Source of the DNA: an uncultured Mycoplasmatota bacterium
GTDB taxonomy: Bacteria; Bacillota_I; Bacilli_A; RF39; UBA660
DNA length: 64,000 nt
Direction of reading: 5' to 3'
Assembly (NCBI GenBank): GCA_947646095.1
Contig: CANSFI010000003.1
Location: 5,011-69,010, forward strand
Of the stretch, positions 21,758 through 31,226 are shown in pieces. How positions within the stretch are numbered: the first letter of the stretch is position 1; every line of letters begins with the position of its first letter. The notes under the pieces were generated by a model. That model was not told the origin of the DNA. It did no database searches and saw only the letters and a program-made list of their open reading frames with translations. The position numbers and the translations under genes are program-made.

Positions 21758-21862
21758 ATGCCAAAAAAACAAAATAAAAAAATAAATATTCAAAAGATAT
21801 TTACTATAATAATGTTATTAGCTATGATAGCAATGTTTATATCAAGTATAATATTTATATAG
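21758..21862 (+). CDS. possible 34-aa membrane peptide
   Basis: gaggtga RBS, MPKKQNKKINIQKIFTIIMLLAMIAMFISSIIFI, stop TAG; below the ORF-track cutoff. Confidence 0.3.
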   Translation: MPKKQNKKINIQKIFTIIMLLAMIAMFISSIIFI

Positions 21863-23163: not shown

Positions 23164-23304
23164 TTATACGATGAAGATATACTTGATGATAATGAGATTA
23201 ATATAATACAAAATAATAAAGATAATGAAAAAGATGATTTTGAGAGATAAAATGATAGTGGTATAGTTGCATAAAATTACTTTTTATGGTAGTATATACA
23301 CCAA

Positions 23305-23374
23305 TCCAAAAAGGGGGATATTTGAATATGGCAACTAAATCCAAAAAGGGGGATATTTGAATATGGCAACTAAA
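23305..23374 (+). repeat. perfect 35-bp tandem duplication covering the RBS and start codon of the next gene
   Basis: TCCAAAAAGGGGGATATTTGAATATGGCAACTAAA occurs at 23305-23339 and again at 23340-23374. Confidence 0.95.
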
Positions 23375-24040
23375 TTAAAAGAAATGAAATGGAAATTACA
23401 TAAGAAAAGATATGATGAATTGTTTAACTATGGAGTAAAACATGGTCTAATTGGTGCTTATGATAAGAAATTAATAGAAAATTTAAGCCATATTTATTAT
23501 GGTGAACTTCCAGCATCCATATTATTATTAAATGGTAAATTAAGTAATGGTCATTGCTATGATAGAGGAACATTAGTGATACTAGGATTTGGTGATGATG
23601 ATTTTCAAGTTGTTGATGCAGATATTGATAGTTTAAGATTAAATCCACAATATATTGATGAATATAGGTCTGGGAATAGAAGTGAACATTTTGCTAATCA
23701 TTGTTTTGCAGAAAGAACATTAAAAGATGGTACAAAATTAGTCTATGGTACTTCTGTCGGATTAGTATTCGAAAAAAGTTTATATTATAAACTTGAAAAT
23801 CCTAAAATTACAAAGATTAATGATAAAGAAACAACTTTAAAATTTTTATATTATGATTTTCAACAAGATTCAGATATAGAAAGAGATAAATATGCCCTAC
23901 CTTTGATTTTACCTAATATAGAAAATTGTTTAGTGCCAACACAACCTTTTTATTTAGAACAATTAAAACAAGAAATTGATTATGATGATATATATAAAGA
24001 AATACATGCGGATATGAAAGCAAAAAGATTTTTGAGTTAA
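23363..24040 (+). CDS. papain/transglutaminase-fold-like protein, paralog 1
   Basis: ATG 23363 with gggggat RBS; SNGHCYDRG...DDDF...ANHCFAERTLKDGTKLVYGTS aligns with the Cys/His/Asp positions of the next gene (the Asp position is Gly here). Confidence 0.5.
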   Translation: MATKLKEMKWKLHKKRYDELFNYGVKHGLIGAYDKKLIENLSHIYYGELPASILLLNGKLSNGHCYDRGTLVILGFGDDDFQVVDADIDSLRLNPQYIDEYRSGNRSEHFANHCFAERTLKDGTKLVYGTSVGLVFEKSLYYKLENPKITKINDKETTLKFLYYDFQQDSDIERDKYALPLILPNIENCLVPTQPFYLEQLKQEIDYDDIYKEIHADMKAKRFLS

Positions 24041-27137: not shown

Positions 27138-27169
27138 TATAATGACTTAAAATTATAATGACTTAAAAT
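27138..27169 (+). repeat. perfect 16-bp tandem duplication TATAATGACTTAAAAT x2
   Basis: Read directly at 27138-27153 and 27154-27169. Confidence 0.95.
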
Positions 27170-27278
27170 TTGTTTAAAGCTACAAAACTAATTATTAAAG
27201 TGTTTATTTTGAACAATAATTGTTTGACTTTATAAAAATTGTGTTAAAATAGTATTTGTTTGAAAGTGGGATTTATTT

Positions 27279-28816: not shown

Positions 28817-29998
28817 TTATTTGTTGTTATGTGTATTTTTTACGAATTTCATTCTTTTTTCACTTGTTTCTATAGATATATTATTATTTTCTTTAATTTC
28901 ATCCATTTCTTGTTCTTCATAATGAATATCCGATTTTTTATTAGTTGAATCATATAGAACCTCTTTATGTAATTGGGTTTCTGCTTGATTGTTTTGTTCT
29001 AGTATCATTTTTTCTTTTTCTTGTTTTATTTTTATAGATTCTAAATATAATTTAGTTTTACTAATATTTTGCATTATCTTATATAGTTCAAATCCTAATT
29101 TTTTTTCTTCATCTTCTGTTTCTATTAAAGAAAGTTTATCTTCACCTAATTTTTCATTAAAACTATTAAAAGTAGATATACTATTCTTTCTGTTATTTAG
29201 TCCATAAGTAGTTGCAACTACAAAGCCTATAATACCTGGAGAAATGATTTCTAAAAAACTAGTATGTAATTGCAAATCATTTAAAATCAATTCAAGACCA
29301 ACTAAGTTATAAATCATAAATGGTAATGCAAAACCTATCATGCCATAGCTAAAAAGATAATCAGATATACTTAATCTAAATCTTGCATTTCTAAATTTTT
29401 TTTGTAAAAACTTTTTAATAGAAAGTTTGTCTAATTTTTCCTCATCTTCAATTAAGATATTGTTGATTTTTTGAAATAAATCTTCTTGAGTTTGACAGTT
29501 TTCTTTTTCAGCAATACTATATTTTTCATAATAAATATTAAAAGGATATTTATCCGATTCTAAATCGGTGCAAACTTTATTTAAAATTTTATTTTTATTA
29601 ATAAGCTTTTCTTTTTCTATTTCGTATTTAGTGATTTCACTTAATAGATCTTTATTACTTTTAGCATTACTTACTTTTCTTAATTTTTGTTTACATTGCT
29701 TTTTCCTATATACTATTTGTTGTCCTATAAAACCCATTAAAGTAGGAATACAAATAGATAATGGTTGAATTAGTTCTATTGGAACTAAATTAAAATCAAG
29801 TATAGAAATATTAATTATTATAATAATTAATGAAATTAATCCAAAAGGAATACCTGTAACAAATTTTTGATTAAATGTATTTTCTTTAATAATGTTTATC
29901 TTATCTTCTAAACATTCTATTTTTCTTATATTCTCATTTAATTCATTTTCTATTATATTTCTTATTTTATCAATATCTTTCACCTTAAAACCTCCCAT
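28817..29998 (-). CDS. hypothetical membrane protein: two pairs of TM helices separated by coiled-coil segments
   Basis: Hydrophobic pairs at aa ~50-100 and ~215-265; K/E-rich heptad-like regions between and after them. Confidence 0.45.
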   Translation of the reverse strand: MGGFKVKDIDKIRNIIENELNENIRKIECLEDKINIIKENTFNQKFVTGIPFGLISLIIIIINISILDFNLVPIELIQPLSICIPTLMGFIGQQIVYRKKQCKQKLRKVSNAKSNKDLLSEITKYEIEKEKLINKNKILNKVCTDLESDKYPFNIYYEKYSIAEKENCQTQEDLFQKINNILIEDEEKLDKLSIKKFLQKKFRNARFRLSISDYLFSYGMIGFALPFMIYNLVGLELILNDLQLHTSFLEIISPGIIGFVVATTYGLNNRKNSISTFNSFNEKLGEDKLSLIETEDEEKKLGFELYKIMQNISKTKLYLESIKIKQEKEKMILEQNNQAETQLHKEVLYDSTNKKSDIHYEEQEMDEIKENNNISIETSEKRMKFVKNTHNNK

Positions 29999-30118
29999 AC
30001 ATGTTATATTATATCATAAAATCAATAATTTAAATTTATTTTTTAATATTATAAAAATTTTTAACAAAACTCTATAAACATCATTATATAATTAAAAGTC
30101 ATTTATTACTACCTTACT

Positions 30119-30151
30119 ATACGTTTAAGCGTTTTTTTAATACGTTTAAGC
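30119..30151. promoter_or_regulatory. candidate LytTR-regulator binding site: perfect 12-bp direct repeat ATACGTTTAAGC x2 with 21-bp periodicity
   Basis: Repeats at 30119-30130 and 30140-30151; the core ACGTTTAAG is close to the AgrA/LytTR 9-mer (ACAGTTAAG) with the usual 12-nt gap; a TATAAT lies ~30 nt away on each side (30182-30187 plus strand, 30083-30088 minus strand). Confidence 0.6.
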
Positions 30152-30193
30152 AATAAGTATTCTTTTTAAATAAAATTAATATATAATATTAAT

Positions 30194-30276
30194 AGAAACA
30201 AAAAAGAGATACATAAGTTGTCCGACTAAGTTCTCTTGGTTTCAGTATAAAAGCACTACTTGTGTTTTTATTTTTG
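30194..30276 (+). ncRNA. candidate small RNA convergent with the 21-aa mini-gene
   Basis: Starts downstream of TATAAT 30182-30187; hairpin AAGAGA..TCTCTT (~30205-30238); terminator AAAGCAC-tactt-GTGTTTT plus T-run (30250-30276); no ATG-initiated ORF; the ends are predictions only. Confidence 0.3.
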
Positions 30277-30333
30277 TAACATATATGATAAGAAAATTAT
30301 AAAGAAAATTAACGAAAAAGCCATTATTTCCAT
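30268..30333 (-). CDS. 21-aa hydrophobic peptide MEIMAFSLIFFIIFLSYMLQK (type I toxin-like or small membrane regulator)
   Basis: Own promoter TTGTAA-N17-TATAAT (30421-30393, minus strand), RBS GAAGGGG 8 nt before the ATG, stop TAA, and a terminator hairpin shared with the convergent RNA. Confidence 0.45.
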   Translation of the reverse strand: MEIMAFSLIFFIIFLSYMLQK

Positions 30334-30415
30334 GCTATCTACCCCTTCTATAAAAATATTTTATAGAACTTAGTATCTTATGTATCATAAATATTATAGT
30401 ATATATCGCATATGA

Positions 30416-31123
30416 TTACAACTGATTTTTAAATTTATTTTGAATATCTTTAATAGATCTAAAAGATAATAGATTAATTTCAATATTGTTATCAAAGGTA
30501 ATTGTTCGCATATTTTTATCTACAAATATAATTCTATCAGTATTTACTATACAAGCACGATGACTATATATAAATCTATCATCTAATGAATTAAATATAT
30601 CTTTTAGTGTAGAAAAAATAGAATAATGATTATTATCAGTAACAATTAAAATGCGATGATTATCTTTTTCTTTGGTTATATATAATATTTTGTCTAAATT
30701 AATTTTATATAATATATTATTTGATTTAATTTTTAAACAATTATTACTTAGTTTTTTAACTATTAAGGAAAGGAAATCATACAAAACTCTATAATTATTT
30801 TCATAATCAATAACACCTGATATCATAATTAATTCTCTATATATTTTTTGAAAAAACTTAGATGAATAATTAGTATTAAGAAATATAAAACTTTGAAAAT
30901 CATATTTGCGTATTTTTTTAGCAAATTCAAAAGCTTCTAATCCTAAAGAATCTATGTCTAGTATATATATTTTAGGTTGTTCTTCTAATTGAGGTATTTG
31001 ATTGATTTCTTTATAAAAATATATTTTATATTCTTGATTTAAATTATTCATAATTTTAAAGATAATAGTTTTAATTATTTTTTGAAAAGATATATTTTTA
31101 TCAATTATAACAAAGTTAATCAT
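30416..31123 (-). CDS. LytTR-family DNA-binding regulator with a degenerate receiver-like N-terminal domain, no adjacent kinase
   Basis: C-terminal LytTR pattern (ILYITKEKDNHRILIVTDNNHYSIFSTLKDI...FIYSHRACIVNTDRI); N-terminus has VIIDKN and IYILDIDS receiver-like strands. Confidence 0.75.
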   Translation of the reverse strand: MINFVIIDKNISFQKIIKTIIFKIMNNLNQEYKIYFYKEINQIPQLEEQPKIYILDIDSLGLEAFEFAKKIRKYDFQSFIFLNTNYSSKFFQKIYRELIMISGVIDYENNYRVLYDFLSLIVKKLSNNCLKIKSNNILYKINLDKILYITKEKDNHRILIVTDNNHYSIFSTLKDIFNSLDDRFIYSHRACIVNTDRIIFVDKNMRTITFDNNIEINLLSFRSIKDIQNKFKNQL

Positions 31124-31226
31124 GAAAATACCTCCTTCTTTATATATTTTATCATATTTTTGTTAAAAAGATTTAGTAATATTTTATTATTTAATGGATA
31201 TAATTAATTGTAAATGGGTGATATTT

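What the first reader, a model, noticed from the sequence alone, without database searches (positions are those of the whole stretch)
30083..31123. Orphan LytTR regulator, a perfect 12-bp direct-repeat operator, a 21-aa hydrophobic mini-gene and a convergent hairpin RNA
Seen directly:
- ATACGTTTAAGC occurs twice with a 21-bp period (30119-30151). This is the spacing and near-sequence of AgrA/LytTR sites, which have 9-mers such as ACAGTTAAG 12 nt apart.
- Just downstream of the LytTR gene there is a fully equipped mini-gene: promoter TTGTAA-17-TATAAT, RBS GAAGGGG, and the peptide MEIMAFSLIFFIIFLSYMLQK.
- On the plus strand, 30 nt after the repeats, TATAAT (30182) has no usable -35, as expected for an activator-dependent promoter. 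It would drive an ~80-nt two-hairpin RNA that ends in the same bidirectional terminator as the mini-gene, so the 3' ends overlap.

Established knowledge: Firmicute type I toxin-antitoxin pairs (txpA/ratA, bsrG/SR4) have this convergent 3'-overlap layout. Some LytTR systems (HdrRM, BrsRM) pair the regulator with a small membrane inhibitor.

Inference: this is either a LytTR-controlled type I TA-like module or a regulator plus membrane-peptide switch. No histidine kinase or autoinducer gene is nearby.
Basis: partly seen in the sequence, partly recalled or inferred. Interest (0 to 1): 0.62.

Follow-up and report, generated by a model that had tools for sequence, protein, structure and literature searches.

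The report
Orphan AgrA-like regulator with operator
A mouse-gut bacterium carries a kinase-less AgrA-type gene regulator next to a textbook binding site for such regulators that points at a short non-coding RNA; the layout is credible but of a known kind, and neither the RNA nor the neighbouring 21-residue peptide gene could be shown to be expressed.

Summary
The 235-aa protein (30416-31123, minus) is a receiver + LytTR regulator of the AgrA family. It keeps AgrA's three base-contacting residues. Its receiver pocket is degenerate (D9->K, conserved Lys->Tyr), and no kinase or agrBCD gene was found among the large ORFs scanned (16.6-42.2 kb), nor agrBCD by tblastn across the 64 kb.

The repeat ATACGTTTAAGC x2 is far beyond chance (about 0.02 expected per window). 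On the plus strand it has the known LytTR promoter geometry: ACGTTTAAG-12-ACGTTTAAG-8-(weak -35)-17-TATAAT. The ~82-nt plus-strand RNA predicted from it folds better than shuffles (z -2.7). Its terminator hairpin works only in the plus orientation.

The 21-aa ORF has a Shine-Dalgarno site better than the median gene. Its hydrophobicity and its promoter are what chance gives at 23.5% GC.

The module is species-specific, all metagenome copies are identical, and no usable RNA data exist. Expression, binding and toxicity are therefore untested.

My best reading is a kinase-independent AgrA-like regulator driving a small convergent RNA, as AgrA drives RNAIII and VirR drives VR-RNA. Calling it a type I toxin-antitoxin pair or a LytTR regulatory system (LRS) is not supported. 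It is a new member of a known kind, of moderate-to-low interest.

The parts
30416..31123 (-). 235-aa orphan AgrA-family regulator: receiver-fold N-domain with a degenerate pocket, plus a C-terminal LytTR DNA-binding domain
   Evidence: Pfam LytTR E 2e-13. phmmer to AgrA LytTR structures E 3e-7, with the H169/N201/R233 equivalents conserved. AF2 model pLDDT 82. Foldseek top hits are full-length ComE 4cbv (E 2e-15), AgrA LytTR (TM 0.9, rmsd 1.4 A) and ComE REC (TM 0.8). D8, D56 and T84 are kept; D9->K and the conserved Lys->Tyr. Pfam Response_reg is not detected even at E<=10.
30119..30151 (+). Two perfect 12-bp direct repeats ATACGTTTAAGC, period 21. The 9-bp cores ACGTTTAAG lie at 30121-30129 and 30142-30150 with a 12-bp spacer. 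Probable operator of the regulator.
   Evidence: It is the only pair in 64 kb matching a loosened form of the LytTR consensus ([TA][AC][CA]GTTN[AG]N) at a 19-23 bp period, and it matches on the plus strand only.
30159..30187 (+). Predicted activator-dependent promoter: -35 position ATTCTT (1 of 6 matches), 17-bp spacer, -10 TATAAT (30182-30187). The -35 position starts 8 bp after the proximal box.
   Evidence: Read from the sequence. The geometry equals that of LytTR-activated promoters tabulated in PMC6193735 (9-bp repeats, 12-bp spacer, 4-11 bp to the -35). The promoter itself is unproven.
30194..30275 (+). Predicted ~82-nt non-coding RNA with two hairpins: H1 30204-30237, and H2 30247-30271 followed by UUUU. 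No ORF of 20 aa or more starts within it.
   Evidence: Fold z -2.67 on the plus strand against +0.76 for the minus strand of the same region. H2 is -8.4 kcal/mol with a U tail in plus only. No Rfam match. No RNA-seq support was obtainable.
30268..30333 (-). 21-codon ORF MEIMAFSLIFFIIFLSYMLQK with SD GAAGGGG (30348-30342), 82 nt downstream of the regulator's stop. Possibly co-transcribed with the regulator. Coding status uncertain.
   Evidence: SD -9.0 kcal/mol, rare among intergenic starts. No Pfam match. Identical in all 8 metagenome copies, so there is no evolutionary signal.
30393..30421 (-). Promoter-like TTGTAA-17-TATAAT overlapping the end of the regulator gene
   Evidence: It matches 10 of 12 positions, but such matches are no more frequent here than in shuffles.
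30204..30237 (-). Hairpin H1 read on the minus strand, followed by UUUUGUUUCUAU. Likely terminator of the regulator/mini-ORF transcript. That would place its 3' end near 30200 and give about 75 nt of antisense overlap with the plus-strand RNA.
   Evidence: -5.1 kcal/mol, 9 U in the 12-nt tail. This is inference; it fails the strict terminator scan.
30083..30088 (-). TATAAT on the minus strand, also 30 nt from the repeats. Alternative box-dependent promoter for the 393-aa gene.
Evidence: The boxes are in the non-canonical orientation for this direction.
28817..29998 (-). Lineage-specific membrane/coiled-coil protein. 393 aa from the ATG; more likely 388 aa from GTG 29983, which is preceded by GGGAGG. 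It has its own extended -10 TGATATAAT at 30016-30008.
   Evidence: No Pfam or NCBIfam hit. Only one 27%-identical relative, in an unrelated context. A nonsense variant occurs in one metagenome strain.

Best explanation
The 235-aa protein is an AgrA-family regulator (receiver fold plus LytTR domain). It has lost its kinase partner and two of the five conserved receiver-pocket residues, so it probably acts without classical phosphorylation. I infer that it binds as a dimer to the two ACGTTTAAG boxes (12-bp spacer). From there it would activate the promoter 8 bp downstream on the plus strand (poor -35, TATAAT at 30182-30187). The product would be a non-coding RNA of about 82 nt with two hairpins, ending at hairpin H2.

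This RNA runs convergently into the 3' end of the regulator/mini-ORF transcription unit, whose own terminator appears to be hairpin H1. The two transcripts would then overlap by about 75 nt. The RNA could act in cis on the regulator/mini-ORF mRNA (feedback or control of the peptide). It could also act in trans as a riboregulator, as RNAIII does for AgrA and VR-RNA, VirT and VirU do for VirR.

Shown: domain identity, conserved DNA-contact residues, non-random repeat, promoter geometry, strand-asymmetric folding. Inferred: binding, transcription, RNA ends and any function of the RNA or peptide.
For: - Regulator identity. LytTR domain. The AgrA base-contact residues H169, N201 and R233 align with H, N and R in the alignment to AgrA. 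The model matches full-length ComE and AgrA LytTR.
- Family. Members at 33-36% identity are the AgrA of complete agrA-agrC / agrD-agrB loci.
- Receiver. D9->K and Lys->Tyr. No kinase or agrBCD found in what was searched of the window.
- Repeat. Expected 0.02 per window by chance. It is the only consensus-type pair in 64 kb, and it matches on the plus strand only.
- Geometry. 9-bp boxes, 12-bp spacer, 8 bp to the -35 position, as in the table of LytTR-activated promoters in PMC6193735.
- RNA. Plus-strand fold z -2.67 against +0.76 for the minus strand. H2 is a terminator-like hairpin only in the plus orientation, which implies a plus-strand transcript to terminate.
- Precedent. A LytTR regulator directly activates sRNA genes (PMC4877802).
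Against: - No transcript evidence. Every run that holds the locus looks like DNA or is too shallow.
- No comparative evidence. The regulator's nearest homologues are only 36-43% identical and sit in other contexts. The downstream gene is an ORFan. GH3 orthologue loci lack the module. All copies are 100% identical.
- Promoter-like motifs are at chance density, and no hairpin passes the strict terminator scan.
- A TATAAT lies at the same 30-nt distance on the other side of the boxes, facing the 393-aa gene.
- No trans target stands out in the window.
Confidence: 0.42

Rival explanations
1. The boxes regulate the downstream 393/388-aa membrane gene on the minus strand, through the TATAAT at 30088-30083, or by repression or roadblock. 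The plus-strand 'RNA' is not made. The hairpins are simply the terminators of the regulator transcript.
For: The regulator and the membrane gene are adjacent, on the same strand, and both lineage-specific. A TATAAT sits 30 nt from the boxes on that side too (note e1-2858516). H1 looks like a minus-strand terminator.
Against: The boxes are in the reverse orientation for this promoter. All tabulated LytTR promoters read AC..TTA.. toward the gene, and the consensus matches only on the plus strand. The membrane gene has its own extended -10 (TGATATAAT) 18 nt from its SD. H2 is a good hairpin with a U tail only on the plus strand.
Confidence: 0.22
2. This is a type I toxin-antitoxin-like pair. The 21-aa hydrophobic peptide is a membrane toxin. 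The plus-strand RNA is its antitoxin, acting through a ~75-nt 3' overlap, with antitoxin transcription gated by the LytTR regulator.
For: A strong SD precedes a short hydrophobic ORF. The predicted transcripts are convergent and overlapping, with separate terminators. This is the layout of txpA/RatA and bsrG/SR4 (established knowledge).
Against: The peptide matches no toxin family. Its hydrophobicity is what any T-rich ORF gives at 23.5% GC. It has a single copy, no relatives and no expression or toxicity data. Its promoter motif is at chance level.
Confidence: 0.1
3. This is a LytTR regulatory system (HdrRM/BrsRM type). The 21-aa peptide, or the 393-aa membrane protein, is a membrane-bound inhibitor of the regulator.
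For: A LytTR regulator is followed on the same strand by a small hydrophobic ORF, with no terminator between them, and then by a membrane protein. The regulator has no kinase partner.
Against: LRS regulators are LytTR-only soluble proteins, whereas this one has a receiver-fold domain. LRS are defined by autoregulatory direct repeats just upstream of the operon's own -35 (PMC6193735). Here there are no boxes upstream of the regulator, and the only boxes lie downstream and face it. The LRS inhibitors described in PMC6193735 are proteins with conserved domains and predicted multi-segment membrane topologies, not 21-aa peptides.
Confidence: 0.08
4. The locus is a relic or a non-functional feature. 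It would be the remains of a decayed agr locus: the agrBD promoter with its AgrA boxes facing agrA, with agrB, agrD and agrC lost. Alternatively, the repeat is a recent local duplication with no regulatory role.
For: In complete loci of the same family, the agrBD operon is convergent with agrA-agrC. That is the orientation of the box-driven promoter here. The receiver pocket is degenerate.
Against: No trace of agrB, agrC or agrD remains in the 230 bp between the promoter and the regulator (tblastn E > 10). The two 12-mers are perfect while the 9-bp spacer is unrelated, which fits selection on two protein-binding sites better than decay or slippage. The LytTR contact residues are intact.
Confidence: 0.15

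Closest known systems
AgrA with the P3 promoter and RNAIII of Staphylococcus aureus
   Same: A receiver + LytTR regulator binding two 9-bp direct repeats 12 bp apart, just upstream of a promoter with a poor or mis-spaced -35 (PMC4227749), and driving a regulatory RNA. The three base-contacting residues are conserved. The box ACGTTTAAG resembles ACAGTTAAG (consensus recalled from Koenig et al. 2004, own knowledge).
   Different: There is no AgrC, AgrB or AgrD. The receiver lacks the second acidic residue and the conserved Lys. The predicted RNA is about 82 nt and non-coding, against 514 nt encoding delta-haemolysin. It is convergent with the regulator gene, not divergent from the operon. NCBIfam AgrA equivalog score is 30 bits against a cutoff of 400, so it is not an AgrA orthologue.
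[quoted passage not shown]
   Same: A LytTR response regulator in a low-GC spore-former that directly activates small RNA genes through paired direct repeats (PMC4877802).
   Different: VirR has its kinase VirS and a phospho-acceptor-dependent mechanism. The VirR boxes differ in sequence and spacing. Those sRNAs are not convergent with virR.
LytTR regulatory systems (HdrRM, BrsRM; PMC6193735)
   Same: Kinase-less LytTR regulation. The repeat/spacer/-35 geometry is the same. A membrane ORF lies directly downstream of the regulator.
   Different: This regulator carries a receiver-fold domain. The boxes are not upstream of its own operon. The candidate partner is 21 aa or an unrelated 393-aa ORFan.
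Convergent type I toxin-antitoxin pairs of Bacillus (txpA/RatA, bsrG/SR4)
   Same: A small hydrophobic ORF and a convergent small RNA predicted to overlap at their 3' ends by about 75 nt.
   Different: There is no sequence relationship. The peptide is much shorter. The antitoxin promoter would be activator-dependent. Nothing has been shown experimentally.

Membership tests
AgrA/ComE-type response regulators (REC + LytTR) | C-terminal LytTR DNA-binding domain with base-contacting His/Asn/Arg | tested here: met
   PF04397 E 2e-13. The equivalents of H169, N201 and R233 are conserved in the alignment to 3bs1/4xqq. TM 0.9 to AgrA LytTR.
AgrA/ComE-type response regulators (REC + LytTR) | N-terminal receiver fold | tested here: met
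   The AF2 model has the alternating beta/alpha pattern. ComE REC domain TM 0.8, and full-length ComE is the top hit.
AgrA/ComE-type response regulators (REC + LytTR) | Complete phospho-acceptor pocket (acidic pair, Asp, Thr/Ser, Lys) | tested here: not met
   D8, D56 and T84 are present, but D9->K and the nearly invariant Lys->Tyr in an alignment of 21 family members. Pfam Response_reg is not detected.
agr quorum-sensing locus | Adjacent AgrC kinase, AgrB and AgrD | tested here: not met
   No HATPase or AgrB domain in the neighbours scanned. tblastn with AgrB/C/D of related loci finds nothing in 64 kb.
LytTR-activated promoter | Two ~9-bp direct repeats separated by 11-13 bp, 4-11 bp upstream of the -35, read toward the gene | tested here: met
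   ACGTTTAAG-12-ACGTTTAAG-8-ATTCTT-17-TATAAT on the plus strand, compared with Tables 2 and 3 of PMC6193735.
LytTR-activated promoter | Regulator binds the repeats and activates transcription | not testable with these tools
   Needs EMSA, footprinting and reporter assays.
LytTR regulatory system (HdrRM/BrsRM) | Autoregulatory direct repeats upstream of the regulator's own operon promoter | tested here: not met
   No consensus-type pair lies in the 97-bp region upstream of the regulator, or anywhere else in the window. The single pair lies downstream and faces the gene.
LytTR regulatory system (HdrRM/BrsRM) | Co-transcribed transmembrane inhibitor protein | tested here: inconclusive
   A 21-aa hydrophobic ORF lies 82 nt downstream, with no terminator between. 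It has no homology and no expression data.
Type I toxin-antitoxin | Small membrane toxin belonging to a known family or shown to be toxic | tested here: not met
   No Pfam hit at E<=10. Toxicity is not testable here.
Type I toxin-antitoxin | Antisense RNA overlapping the toxin mRNA | tested here: inconclusive
   The overlap is predicted from hairpin polarity and the fold. No RNA data exist.

The most novel reading that the evidence does not exclude
This is a type I toxin-antitoxin-like pair whose antitoxin RNA is transcribed only when an orphan, phosphorylation-independent AgrA-like regulator is active. The regulator gene and the 21-aa membrane peptide would share one mRNA, and the regulator-induced convergent RNA would silence that mRNA through a ~75-nt 3' overlap. 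That would make a transcription-factor-gated antitoxin with built-in negative feedback.
Probability: 0.08. Interest if true: 0.65.

Novelty: new member of a known kind. Interest (0 to 1): 0.3.

Why it matters
If confirmed, it would add a kinase-less AgrA derivative with a degenerate receiver that controls a small convergent RNA in an uncultured, very AT-rich mouse-gut bacterium. Such a case would show how agr-type regulators are re-used after the quorum-sensing genes are lost. The perfect operator would also give a clean model for LytTR-DNA recognition. It would not change current concepts, because LytTR regulators that drive regulatory RNAs from paired repeats are already well known.

Tried and rejected
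**Comparative genomics**
- Eight metagenome contigs that encode the identical regulator are 100% identical through the intergenic region, so they carry no signal.
- The nearest regulator homologues (36-43% identity) sit between cotJB and tRNA-His, or inside complete agr loci. None has the mini-ORF or the boxes.
- The downstream 393-aa protein is an ORFan.
- GH3 orthologues at 61-69% identity show no synteny on the regulator side.
- Plasmid searches gave nothing relevant, by DNA or by protein.

**Operator scan of 596 Gb of genomes**
- There were 86 hits. Of the three inspected, two lie in coding sequence and one is a plasmid-like contig; the rest, from diverse phyla, were not examined.
- The window's own genome was not among the 80 loci listed, so the scan gave no regulon information.

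**RNA evidence**
- Runs that hold the locus are DNA-like Logan contigs.
- Mouse-gut metatranscriptomes that contain this organism's PPDK mRNA show no coverage of 30000-31200. They cover even gltX only in fragments, so they are uninformative.

**Other tests**
- Rfam: no family in 27-35 kb apart from a tRNA.
- Trans-target search of the predicted RNA against 58 translation-initiation regions was no better than with shuffled RNA.
- Relic-agr idea: there are no AgrB/C/D remnants.
The whole genome could therefore not be scanned for further boxes, kinases or agr genes.
Full report
**What is in the sequence**

The window has 23.5% G+C. It comes from a bacterium found in many mouse-gut metagenomes. 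The window encodes SpoIIM, so the organism is probably a spore-former, and its GH3 neighbour is most like genes of MAGs labelled 'Bacilli bacterium'.

- ATACGTTTAAGC at 30119-30130 and 30140-30151.
- A 235-aa LytTR ORF at 30416-31123 on the minus strand.
- A 21-codon ORF at 30268-30333 (minus), preceded by GAAGGGG.
- TTGTAA-17-TATAAT at 30421-30393.
- A plus-strand TATAAT at 30182-30187 with no recognisable -35.

**The regulator**

Pfam detects only the LytTR domain (E 2e-13). The alignment to AgrA's LytTR structures keeps the three residues that read bases in AgrA: H169, N201 and R233 align with H, N and R (the residue roles are recalled from Sidote et al. 2008, own knowledge).

An AlphaFold model built on 21 homologues (pLDDT 82) matches three structures:
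- full-length ComE (E 2e-15);
- the AgrA LytTR domain (TM 0.9, rmsd 1.4 A);
- the ComE receiver domain (TM 0.8).

The N-terminal half therefore has a receiver fold, although Pfam's Response_reg model does not see it even at E<=10. In the family alignment D8, D56 (the phospho-acceptor position) and T84 are invariant and present. The second acidic residue is Lys, and the nearly invariant Lys is Tyr.

Family members at 33-36% identity are the AgrA of complete agrA-agrC / agrD-agrB loci. Others are orphans between cotJB and tRNA-His. In this window I found no kinase, AgrB or AgrD. I read this protein as an AgrA-derived orphan with a degenerate, probably phosphorylation-independent, receiver.

**The repeat**

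An exact direct repeat of at least 12 bp with at least 4 G/C, within 12-40 bp, is expected 0.02 times per 64 kb in first-order Markov simulations. It is also the only pair in the window that fits a loosened form of the LytTR consensus ([TA][AC][CA]GTTN[AG]N; the published last position is [TG], which TACGTTTAA misses, giving 8 of 9) at a 19-23 bp period. It fits on the plus strand only.

Read on the plus strand, the architecture is ACGTTTAAG-12 bp-ACGTTTAAG-8 bp-ATTCTT-17 bp-TATAAT. The tables of experimentally studied and predicted LytTR promoters in PMC6193735 give 9-bp repeats, a 12-bp spacer (rarely 11 or 13) and 4-11 bp to the -35. All are written 5'-AC..TTA..-3' toward the gene. AgrA-dependent promoters likewise have sub-optimal core elements (PMC4227749). 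The box is therefore a canonical LytTR activator site facing the plus strand.

For that promoter the boxes would be inverted. The gene also has its own extended -10 (TGATATAAT, 30016-30008) close to its SD and its probable GTG start at 29983.

**The plus-strand product**

No ORF of 20 aa or more starts within the predicted RNA; the only nearby one, a 37-aa TTG ORF at 30260-30373 with no SD, begins inside H2. The stretch 30194-30284 folds into two hairpins with z = -2.67 (2 of 200 shuffles as good). The minus strand of the same region is no better than shuffles (z +0.76).

Taking the hairpins one at a time:
- H2 (30247-30271) is -8.4 kcal/mol and is followed by UUUU on the plus strand. On the minus strand it is only -3.5 kcal/mol with a U-poor tail.
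- H1 (30204-30237) has a U-rich tail (9 of 12) only on the minus strand.

H2 would end an ~82-nt plus-strand RNA near 30275. H1 would end the regulator/mini-ORF transcript near 30200. Each transcript would read through the other's hairpin, giving about 75 nt of 3' overlap.

That H2 works only in the plus orientation is indirect evidence that a plus-strand transcript exists. Neither hairpin passes the strict terminator scan, although the terminators that do pass in this genome have only three G-C pairs. Rfam has no match. A search for trans targets among 58 translation-initiation regions in the window was no better than with shuffled RNA.

**The mini-ORF**

Its SD pairing energy (-9.0 kcal/mol) beats the median of long ORFs (-7.5). 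Of 232 intergenic small-ORF starts only four are as good, and the other three look like real genes. I estimate roughly a 5% chance of such an SD-plus-ORF arising in this spacer.

Other evidence does not help:
- Its hydrophobicity is uninformative, since nearly every T-rich spurious ORF reads the same way.
- Its promoter motif is at chance density.
- It matches no family.
- No terminator separates it from the regulator gene, so it may be co-transcribed.

I put its being a real gene at about 0.4-0.5.

**Why nothing more could be settled**
- The eight metagenome contigs that carry the regulator are identical through the whole spacer.
- No protein between 43% and 100% identity to the regulator exists among 5.8 billion sequences.
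- The 393-aa neighbour is an ORFan.
- GH3 orthologue loci lack the module.
- The runs that hold the locus are DNA-like or too shallow.

The module is species-specific and lies beside a mosaic accessory region (notes).

**Classification**
- It works like AgrA-P3-RNAIII and VirR-VR-RNA/VirT/VirU (PMC4877802): a LytTR regulator driving a small RNA from paired repeats.
- It is not an agr locus, because it has no AgrBCD and scores 30 bits against the NCBIfam AgrA cutoff of 400.
- It is not an LRS, because the regulator has a receiver fold and there are no autoregulatory repeats upstream of its own promoter.
- It cannot be filed as a type I toxin-antitoxin pair, because nothing about toxicity, translation or the antisense RNA has been shown.

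**Verdict**

This is a credible and tidy regulatory module of a known kind, with one refinement (terminator polarity) and one addition (degenerate receiver, AgrA ancestry). Confidence in the mechanism is about 0.4. Interest is about 0.3.

Noticed in passing
L003:4382-4416 (= 393-aa gene, window about 29700-29740): One metagenome strain (ERZ15043546) differs from the others by only two SNPs in 6.7 kb. Both lie in the 393-aa membrane gene, and that strain's gene is called as split 91-aa and 174-aa ORFs, the first ending at the second SNP, which suggests a new stop codon. The gene seems dispensable in that strain.
   Followed up: partly
L064:2060-2215 (CAJUKL010000106.1, mouse-gut Clostridia MAG MGBC157731): A plasmid-like 3.6-kb contig encodes a replication-initiator-like protein (judged by eye, not scanned). 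It carries TATATACGTTTAAG twice at a 21-bp period, the same core and period as the window's boxes. Next to it is a tandem array of 21-bp iteron-like repeats, each containing ACAGTTAAA. This may be coincidence, or a LytTR-type site on a plasmid.
   Followed up: partly
window 23303-23375: A perfect 35-bp tandem duplication (AATCCAAAAAGGGGGATATTTGAATATGGCAACTAAAT) includes an SD and an ATG, so a gene start is duplicated.
   Followed up: no
window 27138-27170: A 16-bp tandem repeat (TATAATGACTTAAAAT x2) lies about 110 bp upstream of the 493-aa multi-GNAT gene.
   Followed up: no
window 21758-21862 (+): An unannotated 34-aa ORF, MPKKQNKKINIQKIFTIIMLLAMIAMFISSIIFI, has a strong SD (-9.9 kcal/mol). 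It is a likely small membrane protein.
   Followed up: no
L107:1398-4232 and L109:3501-6312: Homologues of the regulator at 33-36% identity belong to complete agr loci arranged agrA-agrC followed by convergent agrD (37-39 aa) and agrB, next to csp and hpf.
   Followed up: partly
L009:3501-4345 and L010:3501-4345: The closest homologues (37-43% identity) are also kinase-less. They are conserved between cotJB and a tRNA gene that I read by eye as tRNA-His (not checked with a tRNA finder). P0003 has a TTTGCAA repeat at a 21-bp period upstream of its own gene.
   Followed up: partly
window 28817-29998: The gene most likely starts at GTG 29983, which follows GGGAGG. Five of seven contig annotations aa rather than 393 aa.
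   Followed up: partly
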